Assembly: GCF_009914755.1 (NCBI RefSeq)
Contig: NC_060929.1
Length of the DNA: 64,000 nt
Direction: 5' to 3' (one strand)
Source of the DNA: the human T2T-CHM13v2.0 reference genome, Homo sapiens
Shown here: one piece after another, positions 1 through 50,819 of the stretch
Position numbering within the stretch: the stretch's first letter is position 1
How the letters are laid out: the number at the start of each line of letters is the position of its first letter
Program-made: the position numbers and the translations under genes
Notes under the pieces: model-generated
Told to the model about the DNA's origin: nothing
The model's input: the letters and a program-made list of their open reading frames with translations, nothing else
Databases searched by the model: none

Positions 1-1505
1 AATCTCTAAGTGGCACAGCACCTACAGCCTGCCTGGGTTCATTTCAGGCAAAATGTGTGTGTTCTCTTTAGGGTGAGGCAAGAGCCAAGCGCCCCAGGCC
101 AAGGATGGAGGATGTGCTTGCCCTCATCCCAAGCCCATGTCTCTGCCCCACTGCGCCAACATCACCCCCCACCGCCCTGCTCAGGCATAACCTTCATGGT
201 CCCTCTCTTCTCCTTACCAAATCTAAAATGCTGAGAAAGAATCTGATTTCCTTGTTTACTCCTCAGGTTGATTTAGCACTTACATCTTAAAACCTAGCCG
301 TAATTTTTGATTTACAGGCTTTGTTTTTGCTGACTCCTTTCAACTCTCACCTTCCAGCATCTTCAACTGTCACCCCAAGCCCAGAACAGTCATCATCATC
401 AGACTGAAGTGTCTTACCCATTGCTTCTGTGAACTTCTAAGAGCAAAAGTATGGGGAGTTTCTTCACTGAAGACGCTCTCCCTGACTTCCTGTTCTCCTC
501 ACATCCTGTCACTAAGCTCCTGGCTTCATCGGGTCAGTTCTGACTTGCAGGGGTGAAGAGAGACTGGTAGAGGCAGAGGGAGGTCACATGCTGGCTCCCA
601 GGTCAGGGTGCAAAGCAGTCTGCAGCCTCGGAGAGAGGCTGTCTGTTGTCATTTCTCTCTGTAAGGGTCCAGGCCTTGCCATGAGGGTGAAGGTCACCCC
701 AAAAGTCCACTGCAGTTTTCCATCCTCTAATCTGAAGCCAGACCTTTGTTCTGGCCCCTTCAGCTCTGAAGCGGCTGAACCATTTCCCTGCTGGCCTCAT
801 GTCCAAGCTCTTTGACTTTTGGGTGCAAACGATGTCTGGACAGCTGCTGGCCTTAACTTGGCGGCTGGACCTCTGGGCTCTGCTCTCGGGAAGTCTGACT
901 CACTTTGCTGGGGTTATGCCCTCCCTGTTTCTTTCCATCTCCTCTCCCCTTTTTTCCTTTTGGGCTCAGACACTGGGCGGCCCCCAGCCCCTCTTGCTCA
1001 ACCTACAGACCTCTTCAACCTCTTTTTGCCTTAGAAAAATCAGTTTTGTAAAATCCATTAACGTCCTAACAAGAATTCCAAGTCACAAGCATTCCCATTA
1101 GGGTGCCCACCTCCCAGTCATTTCTCCCCTTCCCCACCTCCCTCTGTGGGGATTTGTAGTAGAAATGCGTAGAAGAAATGCTTGTGGAAGGAACTATCAT
1201 CTTTCCCTGTGAAGTCCTGAAGATCTCCCCTTAATGTTTCGAAAATAGTGGAGCCTACAATTGCTCTTTGAGTTGGGGGCATTGTTGGCCATTTGCTTGT
1301 TTTTCAACTACAAGAGCCTTTTCCCTCCTTCAAAAACCAACCACACACACAAAAACCCACATGAGCCATCCTGTCTTGGATATGCATCCCTGGGGTTAGC
1401 CCAGTGCTGGTTTTTATGTGTCTGCAAAATTCCTCCATTACCCACCCTAAATTGTCACCTCATTTCTTGCCAGTCTGGATCTACACACTGAGACCAGGAG
1501 ACCAT

Positions 1506-2930: not shown

Positions 2931-3267
2931 CCAAAAGCAGCTCCTGGCCCCCTGCCACCACATCACATGGTCACCCCATTGCTGATGACCCCGGTAAAGC
3001 TCAGCAAGCCAAGGTGCGGTCACCTCGGTCCTGTCCTGCCTCCGACACTCAGCGAATGACCTGTCCTCAAACCTGGCAAACAGTAGGCTCTATGTGCAAA
3101 GCACCAGCTTTAACCCAGCACCTCCTCCCACTCCAGTGGGGCAATTCACTGTCGAATCTTCTCGGCGACGCAGGTAGGAAACCCCCGGCATCTGCTCATT
3201 AGGGCTCCTTCTCATTTTTTAAACGGAATTGTCATACTGGCTACCTCTGTGCTCGCACAGACTACCA

Positions 3268-3287
3268 CAGCGCTGCCACCAAGTGTG
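3268..3287 (-). promoter_or_regulatory. Candidate CTCF motif
   Basis: Minus strand reads ACACTTGGTGGCAG, 12/14 to CCASYAGRKGGCRS. Confidence 0.45.
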
Positions 3288-4456
3288 AGGAGCCCAAGAT
3301 CTTTGTTCTCTCTTTGTTCTGAAGGTGACTATTTCTTCAGGGCACGCCTTCCATCCCTCTCCTCTGCCCACCCCTACTTGCTATTCTGATGGAGTTCTCT
3401 GTCTCAGATGAGAAGAGGGGACTCCGACTGTGCGGTCCCCGCTTCCCTTCTCTCCCTTTGTCCTCCTCCCTCCATCAGACATCACGATACTCTTCTTTGC
3501 CTGCTTTCCTCTGCCTGTTCTTCTTATTTTATGCCCTCTGTGCTCTTAAGGGGGAAGAAAGGGGGGCTTCCAGTGATAAGCCCTCAGCTCCCTGTTCCCA
3601 AATGCATCCTAATCAAAATGGGACAGTTGTGACACCACATCCTAGGACTATTAAAATGTCCTCTTTGTTGTTTCACCCCACAGCGGACAGATTAAGGACA
3701 CAGGCATCTGTTGGGAAGCATAATTGTCACTGCTCAGTTCCATTATCCCAAGGAGCAGCCTCCTCTGACGTTATCGCAAGTGACCTTGAGCTGCCCAAGA
3801 AAAATGCTGTGTCTGTTCTAACGTTCTTGGCGACCAGAATTCCCCCAGAGGAGCAATTGCGTCAAGGATGAATAAGATCAAGAGCAGCAAAAATCACATC
3901 ATTCATCCGGTACAGAGGGAGGATTTCAGGCTGGATTTTATGTGGTTAGGTTGCAAGTTTTTTTGTTTTTTGAAGATGTTTTATTGCTTGGGAAGGTGAA
4001 GTGTAGCCTTAAAGTATTCTCATTCTGTGATGACACCCTGGCCCCAGGGGAGAGCTCTGGCAAATGCTCAGGGGACCCTCCCTCCTAGCCTTTGTTTTTT
4101 TAGTGATGACTGTGGATGTGGAGAATGCAGGAGGCACAATCTTCTTGGCAATGTGTTTCTGCTGTCGTCACACTGTGCACTTTAAGTACAGATTTCTATT
4201 TCACTTTTCCTCTGCACCCGCCCATCTCACTCTTGCATCTGGTGCCCCCCGCCCCTCCCCCGTGTTGCTGGCTTCTTTTCCACCCCTGTGTGTTCTTTGA
4301 GCCACTTGAATTTCACTCTGTCCTTTGACCTTTGCCGCGCCATGAGCTTGCCTTTCTCACCTCCCTGAGTTACCCTCAGCCTAAAGGCCAGACCGATGAT
4401 ACTGTGGCCTGAGGAAGCTCACAGATGGCACCCCCGAGGAACAATGGGATAAATGC

Positions 4457-5666: not shown

Positions 5667-6188
5667 TGTATCAGCCAGGAACTTAGTTGTGAACAATATA
5701 ATCCACTCTTATTATTTTAAGGAAAAAGGAATTTATTAGGTGGCTTATAGAATTTCTTGCAGGACCAGTAAGCTAGGGTTAGATAATGTGCTGTAGCCGG
5801 AAGAAATAATCAACCACCCAAGGGATATTCTGGTGGAAATCACTGATGCAGTTGCCCATCACTCTGCACCAGTGACACCAGGGACCAGAGAGTGCAAACT
5901 CTGCTAAAGATACCGAGGGGAGGCATGCTTTGGCTACCCCACTTGCAAAGAAAGTTGAGCTCCCTGAACAGATGCAGCCACATGCTACCATGAAGGAAGA
6001 AGAGACCAATGCAAAGCCGGGGCTTCCTCCTTCACTGTAGCATGTGGCTACATCTGCTCAGCAGAACCTAGGCTGTATCCAGAAGCAGGCATCAGGGGAA
6101 TCTCTCTAACTCTCCTATCTCTGCTGTGGAAAAAGGAAAAAGAGACTGGAAGGGATGTTGAAGGAGTCTGTGCATAGAATCTGTTACA
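5667..6188 (-). mobile_element. Old MaLR LTR (MLT1 family)
   Basis: 'tgtatcagccaggaacttagttg...aaaggaatttatt' typical reverse MLT1 end. Confidence 0.65.
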
Positions 6189-20747: not shown

Positions 20748-21035
20748 TGCCAGTCTTGAACAAGATTATCTAAAAGCAGAGCCTAACACAGGGATTCTTG
20801 TTCAAATAAGTGATTGGGGAATGCTCTCAGGAGTCAGGGGAAAAACTTAGCCAGGTATGGTCTCAATCAGAGACTAACTTCAGTCTGATCCTCCAGAAAG
20901 GCTTTGTACCACAAAGTTAATCCCACCTTGAGTCAAGGGGAAAGCCTTTTTCTACCCACCTTATCACTCAGAGATTGGGAGATTCGCATGGGAGTGGGAT
21001 GGTAAGGTGACAGGGAATCATGGCCTCCCAGGCAA
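20748..21035 (-). mobile_element. LTR33/LTR16-like ERVL LTR fragment
   Basis: 'aagcagagcctaacacagggattcttgttcaa...gaatgctctcaggag'. Confidence 0.5.
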
Positions 21036-21369
21036 AAAAATAGGGACTTCTTATAGGAAATGATTAATAAAAGAAAACCACAAATGCAAAGCATTATATA
21101 AACAATTAATGAATTTAACTAGTATAAGATATTGTCAGGATAAATTTAAATTAATCCTGATGTGTTGGCCAAATGGCAGTCAATGAGTATTGTTTGTCAA
21201 CTCTGATTTGAGCTTGGTTCCCTTAGCCTGTGACATAGAATGGCAGCCTGGAAAATCCCAATCAGGTTGCAAAACCAAACGTGACCTCAGTAGAGTATCA
21301 GTGGAATAATGCTCAACTCAGATAATGCCTTCAAAAGACATTACATAAAGGTGGAGGTGGCCACATGTT

Positions 21370-21519
21370 CTTTGCTGGGTTTATAGACTTCACCTGCCAT
21401 GGAGGGACCCCTCAGTGGTGAGGGTCATGAGCCCCCACAGCGGCTGCTTTGCTGGGACTCCTCCATGGCAGGTGAAGTCTATAAACCCAGCAAAGCAGCT
21501 GCTGTGGGGGTTCGTGACC
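21370..21519. repeat. Two overlapping inverted repeats (36 bp perfect; 34 bp with 3 transitions)
   Basis: 21370-21405 is the exact reverse complement of 21460-21495; 21423-21456 matches the reverse complement of 21486-21519 at 31/34. Confidence 0.97.
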
Positions 21520-23166
21520 ACATTAAAATTCTTATTTGAGTCAAGGATGAGAGACCTGATCCAAACATGGCCTACATGGAGCCAGGCTGTTTTGTTTCTT
21601 CCTTAGGCAGACAGAGTGAAACAGCAAAAAAAACTAAAAAGGTGCAAATTCCACCCTTCATGCGGTAGAAATGTGTGACCTGCAAGGCCTAGATTTTGAT
21701 CATTTAAATCCAACACTTCTGAGCAACTCCTTGAAACTTAGGAAATACCTCATGAATTTTCAAAACATTTCTGAAACATGCTAGACTGCCACATTTGTTG
21801 AAGTCAGCTAGGAGCAAGGGCCAGAGCAGAGGTGGGGACAGTGGAGAAATGAAGCCACTGCCTCAGAGAGGTGAGCCGCACCTGCCCAGTGCCCATGACC
21901 CCAGCACGGAACACCCTCGGCTCTGTTCCTAACCAGTGTTTATTTACCACAGATATCCTTGAATTTCCCTGACTGGTAAGAGATACATGAGAGACAAAGA
22001 GACAGAGAGGGAAAAAGAGAGAGGAGGTCAGAGAATGACCAAAATAACATTGCATTCTTTTTTGTTTAAAGGACATTTAAAAACAAAACATCAAAAAATC
22101 ATTCATTATCATCATTTCATGAATAAAAGCCATTTGAATACCCATAAAAAAAGAAAGCACACAATGCCAGAATAAAGGGTAGTCCTTCAAGATCAATGGA
22201 TTTAGTTTTAGAAAAAACTCACCACATTTGCTTACATTTTCATTTTACCTCACATCAGCACTCTAAGTGTTCTGAGAACCACAGTTTAACAGTTGAGCCC
22301 GTTTAAGCTCACGCCTCCTGTCATTCTCATACAAACTGAAAAGAGCTGGGCTCCTTCTGGCCCAGCTTAAATCAAGAACAAATTAACTACCTGTCCCAAA
22401 TAAAGGACATCCAAAGGTCATGGAAACCTTTAAATCATTCTCAATTTCTAGTTTTTTGAAAACCCTAGCAAATTTCTCATTATCAGTAGGATTGCTAGGG
22501 GCAGTTTCAATAACCTACAAACTAAAGTTTAACTTTTAAAGTAACTGCTTCTGTCATTTAATGCTTTAAAAAATAAAGTTGAAGGCAGAGTTTGTTCAAC
22601 ATTTACTGAGTGCCTAATTATATGTCAGGTAATATGCTACAATAAGGGAATATGTGCATGCATTTTTCCCTGTTTTTCAAATTCAAGTATTATTTACATA
22701 CAATAAAATTTAGCCCTCTTCAGCATACAATTCCAGAAGTTTTGGCAAACACATAAGTTATACAACCATCACCACAATGAAGACACAGAACATTTCCATC
22801 AGCCCCAAAATCCCTCTCACCCCATGTACTCAACTCCTGCCCCTACCTACAGGCCCTGGAAACCACTGATCTGTCCCTATAGTCTTGCCTTTTACAGAAT
22901 ATATAATTATATTCATAATTATTTACATAATAATCTTCCAGAATTCCACATTAGTGTAATCACGCAGTATGTAGCCTTTTGAGTCTGGCTTCTTCCACTC
23001 AGCAGAGTGCATCTAACATTCTTCTGTTGTTGCTCGGATCAATAGTTCCTTCCTTCTTACTGCTGAGTACAGCATGGTTTGTTTATCCACTCCCTGGTTG
23101 AAGCACAGTTGAGTTGTTTCCATTTAGGTAGTAGAGAAAATATAAACAAAGCTGCTATAAATATCC

Positions 23167-23564
23167 TGTATTAGTCTGTTTTCACACTGCTGATGAAGAT
23201 ATACCTGAGACTGGGCAATTTACAAAAGAAAGAGGTTTATTGGATTTACAGTTCCACATGTCTGGGGAAGCCTCACAATCACGGCGGAAGGCAAGGGGGA
23301 GCAAGTCACATCTTACATGGATGGCAGCAGGCAAAGAGAGCGTGGGCAGAGAAACTCATGTTTTTAAAACCTTCAGATCTCATGAGACCTATTCACTATC
23401 ATGAGCACAGAAACTATCACGAGCACTATCATGAGCACTAACGGCACAGAAAATACCCTCCCCCATGATTCAGTCATCTCCCACTGGGTCCCTCCCACAA
23501 CATGTGGGAATTATGGGAGCTACAAGATGAGATTTGGGTATGGACACTGAGCCAAACCATATCA
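23167..23564 (-). mobile_element. THE1 MaLR solo LTR
   Basis: 'tgtattagtctgttttcacactgctgat' to 'gccaaaccatatca'. Confidence 0.95.
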
Positions 23565-28095: not shown

Positions 28096-29373
28096 TGTGG
28101 TGAGAGACAGGACTAGCCGGATTTCCTAGGCTGACTAAGAATCCCTAAGCCTAGCTGGGAAGGTGACCGCTTCCACCTTTAAACACAGGGCTTGCAACTT
28201 AGCTCACACCGGACCAATCAGGTAGTAAAGAGGGCTCACTAAAATGCTAATTAGTCAAAAACAGGAGGTAAAGAAATAACCAATCATCTATTGCCTGAGA
28301 GCACAGCGGGAGTGACAAGGATGGGGATATAAACCCAGGCATTTGAGCCAGCAATGGCAACCCCCTTTGGGTCCCCTCCCTTTGTATGGGAACTCTGTTT
28401 TCACTCTATTTCACTCTATTAAATCTTGCAACTGCACTCTTCTGGTCCGTGTTTGTTACAGCTCGAGCTGAGCTTTCGCTCGCTGTCCACCACTGCTGCC
28501 GGCCGCAGTCGCAGACCCGCCGCTGACTTCTATCCCTCTGGATCTGGCAGGGTGTCTGCTGTGCTCCTGATCCAGCAAGGCACCCATTGCCACTCCTGAT
28601 TGGGCTAAAGGCTTGCCACAGTTCCTGCACAGCTAAGTGCCCAGGTTCATCCTAATTGAGCTGAACACTAGTCACTGGGTTCCATGGTTCTCTTCTGTGA
28701 CCCATGGCTTCTAATAGAGCTATAACACTCACCACATGGCCCAAGATTCCATTCCTTGGAATCTGTGAGGCCAAGAACCCCAGGGCAGAGAACACGAGGC
28801 TTGCCACCATCTTGGAAGCAGCCACCACCATCTTGGGAGCTCTGGGAGCAAGGACCCCCCAGTAGCAGTGGTAGGCTTATAAAGACCTCTAAAGATATCC
28901 AGGTCTTAATCCCTGGAATTTGTGAATGATACCTTATATGGTAACAGAGTCTTTGTAGTTGTGATTAAATTAAAGATTTTGAGATAAGGGGATTAGCCTG
29001 GATCATTAAGGTGGGCACTAAATGTAATCACAAACATCCTTATAAGACAAAGGCAGGTGGTGAGTTGAGCACAGAAGAGCATGTGATGGAAACAGAGTCA
29101 GAGAGAAGGTGTTACAGCACTGGCTTTAAAGATGGAGGGAACAGCCATGAGCCAATGAATGCAAGGAATGTAGCTCTCCATGCTGAGAAAGGCTAGGAAA
29201 CAAATTCCCCCCAGACTCTCTAAAAGGAGCACAAAGCTGCTCACACCTTGATTTCAACCCAGTGAAACCCATTTGGACTTCTGACTTCTAGAACTGTAGA
29301 AGAATAAAAGTATGTTGTTTTAAGCCACCAAGTCTGTGGTTAATTTGTTACCTTGTAATAGGAAACTAATGCA
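28096..29373 (+). mobile_element. MLT1D MaLR LTR interrupted after its 5th base by LTR17
   Basis: tgtgg at 28096 continues as gtggtaggc at 28868; ends 'ggaaactaatgca'; exact TSD CTATT (28091-28095 and 29374-29378). Confidence 0.88.
28101..28867 (+). mobile_element. LTR17 (HERV-W) complete solo LTR
   Basis: Starts 'tgagagacaggactagc'; CCAAT at 28214 and 28280, GATATAAA at 28326, ATTAAA at 28418; exact 4-bp TSD GTGG. Confidence 0.95.
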
Positions 29374-45468: not shown

Positions 45469-45777
45469 ACAGGTTAAGAGTGCAGCTGATACCCACAAAC
45501 CATGGCCAGTAACCCAAGAACTACTCCAGCAACTTGCTGGCTCAAACGAAAAACAATCATAAGAAAATTAAAAAGTTCTCTATTTGTCAGTCATCAACTC
45601 CACCATAAATCCTTGTCAGTCCCCAAAGGCTGTAGTGATTAGTTAAATGTTCTGCAGGATAAATGTTCACACCAAAACCACAGGTAGACCTTCTCCATTT
45701 TGCATAATAAGACAAGGAGAGACTTGTATAAGGACAGGAAAAGGTCCAGCCTAGTAAACACAGGAGATTCTGCAGGA

Positions 45778-46114
<337 letters not shown>

Positions 46115-46123
46115 CTACATTAA

Positions 46124-46318
<195 letters not shown>

Positions 46319-49390: not shown

Positions 49391-49599
49391 ATCTCACCCC
49401 TGACCACAGCATTAGTCTTCCTGCTTTGCTTTGAGTATCCTGCCTCCTCCAAATAACCTAAAATAGTTACTATCTGGTTCCTTACAGAAAACGTGTGCCT
49501 AGTATGAATGCACATGTGTTATCCGAAAGGGGTAAAACGGTGGGCCATTGGCAAGTACTCACAGTTTTAACACGAAGGAATCACATCGTAATGGAGTAG

Positions 49600-50565
49600 G
49601 GTACAGGAGGATGGCGTGCTCAGGCACTAGGGGGATGCCGGAGCAGGGCGTGCAGGCACTGGCTGTGATAGGCAGAGCCAAGATGATCCCCAGGTTCCCA
49701 GAAAAATGATTTGGTTGTGGGAGGCAGCAGCCATAGGGCAGCCCTTCTACTGGGGGTGGGGGCGGGGGCGGGAGCAGGGGAAGGGGAGGGGCGGGGGCGG
49801 GAGCGGGGGGGGCGGGGGGGCGGGAGCGGGGGGGGGGGCGGGGGCGGGGGCGGGCTTGCTTTCAGTGGCAGCTGCCATAAATAGGCAGCTAGGGCGCGCT
49901 CGCTTCAGCCCAATTGCTAACTACAAGTAGGGTAGTCTGTCCTCAGAGTGCTTGTAAATGCATGGCAGGACTGCTACTGGGCCACCTGGGTCCCTGTCAA
50001 TGACTTGTGCTTCAGCCTTGGAGGCAGCAGCACCCCGATTTCAGCAGAGGATGTCTGTGGGGCTCCAGGTATGCGGAGTTGCAGGGGTTGCTGGGCCTCA
50101 GGGCAGGATGTAGTCTGCTGGGGACTGGGCTCTCAAAATGGCGTCTTGCTGTGGCTGCTTAGGGCTCAGGGGATGTGTGGGACCTAGCGTGAGTTTCCCC
50201 CTGGAGCAATGCCATCTGTGATCTCCAGGACGCTCCCTATGTTAGTCACAGGGCTTGTGTGGGTCGAGGGGCTCTCGTAGGGCTGGGATTGCAGTAGTCC
50301 ATGATGGGAATGCAGACCGCTGTGGGTAAGTCATTTACTCTTTCCTCACACTGGGGAGCCTCTCCAGGCTCCCAGCCAGTCCTGGCAGACTGTCTCTCTT
50401 ACCGCTTGCGCTCCTTCCTCACCTCAGGTGTTTTCTGTCACTTCTCCGTTAAATCCAGTGTTCTCTTTTTGGTGGTGTATTAAACGTGTGATTATGCGCT
50501 GTTTCACTTCTTGATGGAGGAGGCAAGGACCAGATGCCTCTAGTTAGCCATCTTGGAGCCCCTCC
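49600..50565 (-). mobile_element. Isolated L1 5'UTR (L1PB/L1MA-type)
   Basis: Minus strand begins GGAGGGGCTCCAAGATGGC, an L1 start with YY1 site; colinear with the L1 5' region at 61950-62600. Confidence 0.82.
49752..49854 (+). repeat. G-rich (GGGGC-like) tract; G-quadruplex / GC-box cluster
   Basis: 103 nt dominated by G runs; 11 intact CpG. Confidence 0.92.
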
Positions 50566-50819
50566 AAGGCCCTACTTGTCAATATCATTACAACAGGGAA
50601 TACGTTTTAATCTAAACTGTGGAGGAAGTGCATTCAAACCATAACATTGTACTTTACAAAATGAATAAATTAATTTGTGGGAAAATGGCCTTTTATCAGA
50701 GTTTGAGATGCGTCCTCTAGAGGAGTCTAGCACCGCTGGGAAATCAGTCCAGAGGCATTTCGACAGTTGGGATATGAAAAAAAGGAAAATTTCCTAAAGA
50801 AGATGTCGATTTCCAATGC

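What the first reader, a model, noticed from the sequence alone, without database searches (positions are those of the whole stretch)
21370..21519. Interlocked double inverted repeat: two mutually exclusive long hairpins (possible bistable fold)
Seen: arm A (21370-21405) pairs perfectly over 36 bp with 21460-21495. Arm B (21423-21456) pairs over 34 bp with 21486-21519. Both need the same CCCAGCAAAG (21486-21495), and most of A's partner lies in B's 29-nt loop, so the full helices cannot coexist. All three B mismatches are G-U wobbles in plus-strand RNA, giving an unbroken 34-bp stem in a 97-nt hairpin of pri-miRNA-like size. I recognise no transposon here. Inference: a young hairpin locus that could yield small RNAs or dsRNA, switch between two folds, or extrude cruciforms. 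Function is unproven; three wobbles on one strand is weak evidence by itself.
Basis: partly seen in the sequence, partly recalled or inferred. Interest (0 to 1): 0.8.

Follow-up and report, generated by a model that had tools for sequence, protein, structure and literature searches.

The report
Template-switch scar forming interlocked hairpins
This single-copy stretch of human intergenic DNA holds two overlapping inverted repeats that look like the footprint of DNA polymerase briefly copying the wrong strand, a known and common kind of mutation, and nothing shows that it has a function.

Summary
Arms 21370-21405/21460-21495 pair perfectly over 36 nt. Arms 21423-21456/21486-21519 pair over 34 nt with three transition mismatches, all G·U on the plus strand. 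The two repeats share one 10-mer. Chance does not explain it: the longest perfect inverted repeat in 30 surrogate windows was 11-15 nt.

The locus is single-copy in T2T-CHM13, whereas two masked control stretches gave 4494 and 598 candidates. It has no target-site duplication, so it is not a MITE. No Rfam family reaches threshold.

The right-hand 60 nt is one contiguous unit. The left holds its reverse complement, cut at the 10-mer and placed in swapped order. That layout fits short-range template switching: either one "3-1-4-2" event or a chain of two snap-back copies. Both are described in human genomes (PMC5453318, PMC9435742).

Two of the three mismatches are CpG decay and arm A has no CpG, so both repeats can be the same age, roughly tens of millions of years.

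The region is not bistable at equilibrium. Fold A wins by 8.5-9 kcal/mol, and fold B makes up about 4e-7 of the ensemble.

It is most likely a neutral mutational by-product. Primate orthologues would settle the history.

The parts
21370..21405 (.). Arm A (segments m + y). It is the perfect reverse complement of 21460-21495. Its first 10 nt (21370-21379) are the shared 10-mer m.
21406..21422 (.). Segment s, 17 nt between arm A and arm B. It has no partner in the large repeats. It forms a small local stem-loop with the first bases of arm B. It is either ancestral forward sequence or junction filler.
   Evidence: No other copy in the window at up to 3 mismatches.
21423..21456 (.). Arm B (segments x + m). 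It is the reverse complement of 21486-21519 with 3 transition differences. Its last 10 nt (21447-21456) are a second direct copy of m, 77 nt after the first.
21457..21459 (.). Segment t, a 3-nt connector between arm B and the right-hand unit.
21460..21519 (.). The contiguous 60-nt right-hand unit (y' m' x'). Positions 21460-21495 partner arm A and 21486-21519 partner arm B. The shared m' lies at 21486-21495.
   Evidence: In one search the 60-mer matches only itself plus the two left arms in the whole genome.
21423..21495 (.). Under the single-event '3-1-4-2' model, this is the 73-nt fragment copied in reverse complement (F2).
   Evidence: Inference from the layout and the four-point model as described in PMC5453318.

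Best explanation
The 150-bp structure is the footprint of short-range template switching during DNA synthesis. A growing strand left its template, copied nearby sequence in reverse complement, and returned.

Write the locus as P0 [m y] s [x m] t [y' m' x'] P1. The right 60 nt is one contiguous unit. The left holds its reverse complement, cut at the 10-mer m and placed in swapped order. That swap is what interlocks the two repeats.

Three sub-models fit, and I cannot separate them:
(i) One four-point '3-1-4-2' event. The ancestor is P0-m-y-(complement of t)-m'-x'-P1, which already carried the 10-bp m/m' inverted repeat. The 73-nt fragment 21423-21495 is the reverse-complement copy. One jump is primed by the 10-nt homology, and the 17-nt segment s is filler at the other junction.
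(ii) One chained event with two snap-back copies (34 nt, then 36 nt) of the same 60-nt source, separated by the 17-nt forward fragment s.
(iii) Two separate events, B first and A later.

The product is most likely neutral: an untranscribed or unprocessed hairpin-capable stretch of intergenic DNA. If it were transcribed, the 36-bp helix A would dominate at equilibrium. Helix B could persist only as a kinetic trap, mainly on the minus strand, where its two arms emerge first.

Shown: the anatomy, single-copy status, non-chance status, the energetics, and the CpG nature of the mismatches. Inferred: the mechanism, the age, and neutrality.
For: - Both repeats are exact or near-exact reverse-complement copies within 150 bp, and the source is contiguous on one side.
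- The locus and both flanks are unique in the 3.1-Gb assembly, with 1 first-look candidate per query. Two masked control stretches of similar length gave 4494 and 598 candidates.
- A repeat of this length is far beyond chance.
- In the PMC7954356 supplement s015, 46 rows carry type 3142. The six commonest types I counted total 1349 rows.
- PMC9435742 (passages) reports two adjacent 62- and 32-bp TSM fragments separated by a 16-bp forward fragment, and states that local TSMs can be chained. It gives the longest TSM in complex sequence as 90 bp. The present fragments (36 + 17 + 34 nt, or 73 nt) fall within that range.
- PMC10710096 (Results read) reports 53,666 putative TSMs in genic regions on the primate-to-human lineage. 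Of these, 31,007 create new RNA stems and 6,054 are miRNA-sized. Two loci were hit twice, and multi-switch cases were seen.
- Two of the 3 differences in B sit at CpG sites, one decayed in each arm, and arm A has no CpG. Equal age of A and B is therefore not rejected: P(all 3 in the x part) = 0.059, and P(0 differences in A at the ML age) = 0.31.
- A second single-copy 39-nt, 87% hairpin lies in the same window. Such loci are therefore not rare.
Against: - No outgroup sequence could be examined, so the defining test of a TSM, derived versus ancestral state, was not done.
- Sub-model (i) needs an unexplained 17-nt filler and a pre-existing 10-bp inverted repeat.
- Sub-models (ii) and (iii) show no microhomology at the junctions that can be read from the present sequence.
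- The locus is not among the 4,016 great-ape TSM events of PMC7954356: 0 rows on chr5 start with 5889-5892. This is weak, because the GRCh38 coordinate rests on gene positions I recalled, and because that study detects only events on the human, chimp and gorilla lineages.
- Neutrality is assumed from the base rate and the intergenic position. It was not measured.
Confidence: 0.8

Rival explanations
1. The structure is a repair scar rather than a replication error. A double-strand break next to 21459/21460 was repaired by polymerase-theta-type end joining. The 3' end of the right-hand break end snapped back on itself twice, copying x-m and then m-y, with short filler (t, s) between rounds. It was then joined to P0, giving a pure 90-nt insertion (21370-21459).
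For: Read on the minus strand, the layout is P1' x m y | t' m'x' s' y'm' | P0'. That is what iterated snap-back synthesis from a single 3' end would produce, and it needs no pre-existing repeat. Templated inverted insertions at end-joining junctions are an established class. That statement is recalled knowledge, not from a call.
Against: As I recall, templated insertions from this pathway are usually much shorter than 34-36 nt per round. The priming positions that can be read show no microhomology (reading). Without an outgroup this cannot be told apart from the replication models.
Confidence: 0.1
2. The locus is a palindromic MITE or other DNA transposon remnant, and its terminal inverted repeats are the arms.
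For: The arm lengths (34-36 nt) and total size (97-150 bp) resemble some human MITEs. That comparison is recalled, not from a call.
Against: - There is no other copy in the genome for the 201-nt locus, the 60-nt unit, either flank-plus-arm query or the 1.8-kb surroundings. The same tool found hundreds to thousands of candidates for two masked controls.
- No target-site duplication flanks 21370/21495, 21423/21519 or 21370/21519 (reading).
- The interlocked, permuted layout is not a TIR-spacer-TIR element.
- No Rfam MITE-derived miRNA family matches.
Confidence: 0.02
3. The locus is a functional hairpin RNA gene: an unannotated primate-specific miRNA or endo-siRNA precursor, or a two-state RNA switch. 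It would have been created by template switching and later recruited.
For: - Both stems (36 and 34 bp) lie near the 35-bp optimum for pri-miRNAs quoted in PMC10710096.
- Isolated hairpin B folds at -77.0 kcal/mol on the plus strand.
- TSM-born hairpins have become miRNAs (PMC10710096).
- The three B mismatches are wobbles on the plus strand.
Against: - No gene is annotated in the window (hub table). The nearest RefSeq enhancers, at 3233-4432 and 49568-50791, are 17 kb or more away.
- Rfam has no hit at gathering score. The best match is 37 bits against a cut-off of 100.
- Only 0.9% (57 of 6,054) of suitable TSM hairpins in genic regions are annotated miRNAs, and 89% of TSM miRNAs are intragenic (PMC10710096).
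- Fold B is about 4e-7 of the equilibrium ensemble.
- Hairpin B on the plus strand carries 0 of 3 pri-miRNA motifs at the expected places (motif rules recalled).
- Perfection of arm A is expected under neutrality (P = 0.31).
Confidence: 0.03
4. The structure is an assembly or sequencing artefact, such as a chimeric fold-back read.
For: None from my calls. Inverted repeats can arise as library artefacts in general (recalled).
Against: - The three diverged positions in B, two at CpG sites, indicate evolutionary age, not a fresh artefact.
- The locus lies in unique sequence of a finished assembly.
- I could not check it against a second human assembly.
Confidence: 0.01

Closest known systems
Four-point-model template switch event of type '3-1-4-2' (Loytynoja & Goldman 2017, PMC5453318; their Fig. 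2D example is at GRCh37 chr2:135684492-135684613)
   Same: One reverse-complement copy that spans both the sequence before switch point 1 and the sequence after switch point 4 yields two crossing inverted repeats in the order a, c', a', c. That is exactly the order of arms here: A, B, A', B'.
   Different: This locus needs a 17-nt unexplained insert (s) at one junction. The two right-hand arms overlap by 10 nt, which forces a pre-existing 10-bp inverted repeat in the ancestor. The ancestral state was not observed. I saw only passages and the figure legend of that paper, not the figure.
Chained local TSMs (Loytynoja 2022, PMC9435742: chr19 locus with 62- and 32-bp fragments separated by a 16-bp forward fragment)
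   Same: Two reverse-complement fragments (36 and 34 nt here) are separated by a short forward fragment (17 nt here), within about 100 bp.
   Different: Here both fragments copy overlapping parts of one 60-nt source and sit in swapped order. The published case is a rare human variant with the ancestral allele known. Its supplementary figure is a PDF I could not read.
TSM-born miRNA hairpins such as hsa-mir-4713 and hsa-mir-576 (Monttinen et al. 2023, PMC10710096)
   Same: A single-copy, lineage-specific hairpin with a near-perfect stem of about 35 bp, created from unstructured sequence.
   Different: Those loci are transcribed, 89% are intragenic, they show processed read stacks, and they are annotated. 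This locus is intergenic and unannotated. I have no expression data for it, and its MFE fold has a 54-nt structured loop.
MITE-derived hairpins (for example MADE1 / mir-548; recalled, not from a call)
   Same: A short palindromic unit with arms of about 35 nt that can fold into a long hairpin.
   Different: MITEs are multi-copy and carry target-site duplications. This locus is single-copy with none.

Membership tests
Short-range template-switch mutation (four-point model) | A fragment that is the reverse complement of nearby sequence (within a few hundred bp) and longer than chance matches (the paper filtered at 14 bp or more) | tested here: met
   Fragments of 36 nt (100%) and 34 nt (91%) lie within 150 bp. 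Surrogate windows reach at most 15 nt. The 14-bp threshold comes from PMC5453318.
Short-range template-switch mutation (four-point model) | The state is derived: a cluster of differences against the ancestral or outgroup sequence is explained by the reverse-complement copy | not testable with these tools
   No primate or other vertebrate genome is reachable. The locus is not in the great-ape event table of PMC7954356 (0 of 4,016 rows at chr5 58.89-58.93 Mb, coordinate recalled).
Short-range template-switch mutation (four-point model) | The locus lies in unique, complex sequence, not in a repeat element or low-complexity DNA | tested here: met
   Only self matches in the whole genome. Controls gave 4494 and 598 candidates. 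Old, highly diverged repeat families were not excluded.
Short-range template-switch mutation (four-point model) | The whole change is explained by one 2->3 fragment with an observed switch-point order (point 1 before point 4) | tested here: inconclusive
   The layout fits order 3-1-4-2 with F2 = 21423-21495, but 17 nt (21406-21422) stay unexplained. Alternatively, two 3-2-1-4 fragments explain it (reasoning).
MITE / DNA transposon | Multiple dispersed copies in the genome | tested here: not met
   against controls 36, 37
MITE / DNA transposon | A target-site duplication flanking the terminal inverted repeats | tested here: not met
   Reading of the flanks shows no direct duplication next to any of the three possible element boundaries.
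miRNA gene (pri-miRNA hairpin) | A stem of about 35 bp with an apical loop of 10 nt or more | tested here: met
   B has a 34-bp stem and a 29-nt loop. A has a 36-bp stem and a 54-nt, partly structured loop. The size rule is quoted in PMC10710096.
miRNA gene (pri-miRNA hairpin) | A match to a described miRNA family, or an annotated miRNA gene | tested here: not met
   Rfam gives 0 matches at gathering score in the window. The best sub-threshold hits are 37 bits against a cut-off of 100. The hub table lists no gene in the window.
miRNA gene (pri-miRNA hairpin) | Transcription and Drosha/Dicer processing (read stacks of about 22 nt) | not testable with these tools
   No expression data are available here.
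Bistable RNA / conformational switch | Two alternative folds of near-equal free energy, both populated | tested here: not met
   Plus-strand RNA ensemble energy is -103.7 (A forced) against -94.6 (B forced), and B's share is 3.6e-7. Minus-strand RNA gives 5.9e-9. DNA gives 4.5e-9 and 2.5e-10. The bare helices are close: A -68.6 and B -73.0 on plus-strand RNA.
Bistable RNA / conformational switch | Conservation or covariation supporting both folds | not testable with these tools
   No homologous sequences could be obtained.

The most novel reading that the evidence does not exclude
The locus is an unannotated, primate-specific hairpin RNA gene born by a rare double-repeat template switch. Its transcripts partition kinetically between two crossing helices. 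On the minus strand B forms first co-transcriptionally and A is the ground state. A plus x:x' could also form a pseudoknot-like intermediate. The locus would yield different small RNAs or dsRNA substrates depending on strand and folding path.
Probability: 0.02. Interest if true: 0.6.

Novelty: new member of a known kind. Interest (0 to 1): 0.22.

Why it matters
The locus is a clean example of how one or two polymerase template switches can create long, perfect, interlocked inverted repeats in unique human DNA. Such repeats are raw material for new hairpin RNAs. They also cause clustered 'mutations' that confuse alignment and variant calling.

Its double, crossing layout belongs to the rarer classes: 1% of events in PMC5453318, and 46 of the 1349 rows in the six types I counted in PMC7954356. 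It could therefore serve as a test case for multi-switch models, which the authors of PMC10710096 say their algorithm does not capture.

Beyond that it is ordinary. The published counts run to tens of thousands of such events on the human lineage, and nothing here indicates function.

Tried and rejected
- **Rfam.** The permissive scan of 20800-22100 gave 19 matches at E up to 10. All were below gathering score and were generic long-hairpin similarity to single-species miRNA families. The whole-window gathering scan gave 0 matches.
- **Origin of segment s.** No second copy exists in the window at up to 3 mismatches, so I could not trace its source.
- **Paralogues for reconstructing the ancestor.** The 1.8-kb query gave only two short unrelated hits, 64 nt at 82% and 44 nt at 91%, both outside the hairpin. 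The flank queries matched only themselves.
- **Published event tables.** The PMC7954356 table has no row at the estimated GRCh38 position. The PMC9435742 supplements are PDFs that cannot be read here, so I could not check whether the locus is a known human polymorphism. I did not open the PMC10710096 datasets, because they cover miRNA and genic loci only.
- **Refolding barrier.** findpath gave saddle energies of about +5.5 (+) and -1.6 (-) kcal/mol. The nested model must open one helix fully before forming the other, because the helices cross. The number is therefore an upper bound on the barrier, not a kinetic estimate.
- **pri-miRNA motif check.** The result is uninformative. It found 0 to 2 of 3 motifs depending on hairpin and strand, using slack windows and recalled rules.
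- This was an unfinished script that printed nothing.

Full report
**1. Observation**

- Arm A (21370-21405) is the exact reverse complement of 21460-21495: 36 nt, with a 54-nt spacer.
- Arm B (21423-21456) pairs with 21486-21519 over 34 nt with three mismatches and a 29-nt spacer.
- The two right-hand arms overlap in the 10 nt at 21486-21495.
- 26 nt of A's partner lie in B's loop.
- The mismatches are 21428 T/21514 G, 21431 G/21511 T and 21442 G/21500 T. All are G·U in plus-strand RNA and C·A on the minus strand.

Chance is excluded.
- The longest perfect inverted repeat with a spacer of 300 or less is 36 nt in the window. It was 11-15 nt in 30 of 30 first-order Markov surrogates.
- Among the 15 inverted-repeat pairs of at least 18 nt in the window, only this one is perfect.
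- RNA folding of 21360-21530 gives -101.1 kcal/mol (+, z = -8.95) and -99.7 kcal/mol (-, z = -10.45). None of 200 shuffles did as well.

**2. Anatomy**

Write the 10-mer at 21370-21379 as m. The locus then reads P0 [m y] s [x m] t [y' m' x'] P1.
- y is 26 nt, s is 17 nt (21406-21422), x is 24 nt, and t is 3 nt (21457-21459).
- The right-hand 60 nt (21460-21519) is a single contiguous unit.
- The left side holds its reverse complement, split at m, with the two pieces in swapped order.
- As a result m occurs twice in direct orientation, 77 nt apart, and once inverted.
- The arm order A, B, A', B' makes the two helices cross in a pseudoknot topology. They also compete for m'.
- Segment s forms a small local stem-loop with the first bases of x (folds). 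It has no other copy in the window at up to 3 mismatches.

**3. What it is not**

It is not a dispersed repeat.
- Whole-genome searches of the window's own assembly (3.1 Gb) found only the locus itself and its own inverted self-matches, with 1 first-look candidate each. This held for the 201-nt locus, the 60-nt unit and two flank-plus-arm queries.
- The 1.8-kb surroundings added only two short unrelated hits outside the hairpin.
- The same tool returned 4494 and 598 candidates for two masked stretches of similar length, with 40 scored each at 89-94% identity. The negative result is therefore meaningful for young to middle-aged families. Very old, diverged families are not excluded.
- No target-site duplication flanks any possible element boundary.

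It is not a member of any Rfam family.
- The whole window gave 0 matches at gathering score.
- The permissive scan gave 19 sub-threshold matches, the best at 37 bits against a cut-off of 100. These are generic long-hairpin similarity.
- The hub's table lists no gene in the window.

**4. Is it bistable?**

Not at equilibrium.

| Molecule | Ensemble energy, A forced (kcal/mol) | Ensemble energy, B forced (kcal/mol) | Share of fold B |
|---|---|---|---|
| Plus-strand RNA | -103.7 | -94.6 | 3.6e-7 |
| Minus-strand RNA | -102.6 | -91.5 | 5.9e-9 |
| Plus-strand DNA | -61.6 | -50.1 | 4.5e-9 |
| Minus-strand DNA | -61.7 | -48.4 | 2.5e-10 |

- These figures come, with all pairs of one helix forced in the 171-nt context. 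Plus-strand RNA MFEs are -101.1 (A) and -92.6 (B).
- The minus-strand B constraint forces three non-standard pairs.
- The bare helices are close on plus-strand RNA: A -68.6 and B -73.0. A wins through extra structure inside its loop and at its base.
- Because the helices cross, a nested-model refolding path must melt one helix completely. The findpath saddle energies are +5.5 and -1.6 kcal/mol. Whichever helix forms first would therefore be long-lived.
- By order of synthesis this favours A on a plus-strand transcript and B on a minus-strand transcript. This is my inference and is untested, and there is no evidence that either strand is transcribed.

**5. Most likely origin**

The layout is what short-range template switching produces.
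- Loytynoja & Goldman (PMC5453318; passages) define a four-point model. [quoted passage not shown]
- Under that model the output is L a c' b' a' c R, the same arm order as here.
- Fitting it gives this reconstruction: the ancestor is P0 m y (complement of t) m' x' P1, the copied fragment is 21423-21495 (73 nt), one jump is primed by the pre-existing 10-bp m/m' repeat, and s is unexplained filler.
- In the great-ape table of Walker et al. (PMC7954356, file s015), 46 rows carry type 3142. The other counts are 410, 331, 237, 191 and 134 for types 1432, 3214, 3124, 1342 and 1324. Each count could include a stray match in the ID column.

The alternative is two snap-back copies of one 60-nt source (34 nt, then 36 nt on the minus strand), separated by the forward fragment s.
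- Loytynoja 2022 (PMC9435742; passages) reports this pattern: 62- and 32-bp fragments with a 16-bp forward fragment. [quoted passage not shown]
- Monttinen et al. (PMC10710096; abstract and Results) report loci hit twice, and multi-switch cases that their algorithm misses.

A repair version, iterated snap-back synthesis at a double-strand break, gives the same product as a pure 90-nt insertion. I rate it lower, on recalled size ranges.

**6. Age, and one event versus two**

- Two of the three B differences lie at CpG sites. The right arm keeps the CG at 21513-21514, and the left arm keeps the CG at 21441-21442.
- Arm A and its partner contain no CpG.
- The contrast of 0/36 against 3/34 differences therefore does not show that A is younger. 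P(all three fall in the 24 x positions) is 0.059. Given the ML age, P(no difference in A) is 0.31.
- Using recalled human rates (3.8e-10 per non-CpG site per year, 9e-9 per CpG dinucleotide per year), the ML age is 43 My with support from 11 to 113 My. This is very rough. It ignores gene conversion between arms and faster ancestral rates.
- This age fits the absence of the locus from the great-ape event table: 0 of 4,016 rows at chr5 58.89-58.93 Mb, and the single match was on chr8. That coordinate rests on recalled gene positions, so the evidence is weak.

**7. Function**

- Nothing indicates function.
- Perfection of A is expected under neutrality.
- All-wobble mismatches on one or other strand have a 1 in 4 chance for three transitions.
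- The site is intergenic, 28 kb or more from RAB3C and 60 kb from PDE4D (hub table).
- Only 57 of 6,054 suitable TSM hairpins in genic regions are annotated miRNAs, and 99 of 111 TSM miRNAs are intragenic (PMC10710096).
- A second single-copy hairpin lies in the same window: 5964-6002/6023-6061, 39 nt at 87%. Loci of this kind are therefore common.

**8. Verdict**

It is an instance of a known mutational class, and one of that class's rarer double-repeat forms. The bistable-switch and small-RNA readings are unsupported. The decisive test is comparison with primate orthologues, which I could not run with these tools. I could not read the supplements of PMC9435742, which might list the locus as a human polymorphism.

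Noticed in passing
window 5964-6061: A second hairpin-capable inverted repeat: arms 5964-6002 / 6023-6061, 39 nt, 87% complementary, 20-nt loop. It is also single-copy in the genome (only self matches). It is probably an older template-switch hairpin.
   Followed up: partly
window 45977-46070 / 46217-46310: A 94-nt, 81% inverted repeat with a 146-nt spacer. It overlaps a stretch the hub lists as masked (45771-46104). It is probably two oppositely oriented copies of an interspersed repeat.
   Followed up: no
window 21135-21160: A small AT-rich near-palindrome (17-18 nt arms that overlap, 94% complementary), 210 bp upstream of the finding. It is within the size range that chance gives.
   Followed up: no
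window 23131-23343 and 28599-28861: These masked stretches were used as positive controls. They belong to abundant interspersed repeat families, with 4494 and 598 first-look candidates genome-wide and best copies at 89-94% identity.
   Followed up: partly
window 903-912: A fourth exact copy of the 10-mer shared by the two repeats. The shuffle expectation for the window is 0.34 copies, and the three copies inside the locus explain the excess. The distant copy is probably coincidence.
   Followed up: no
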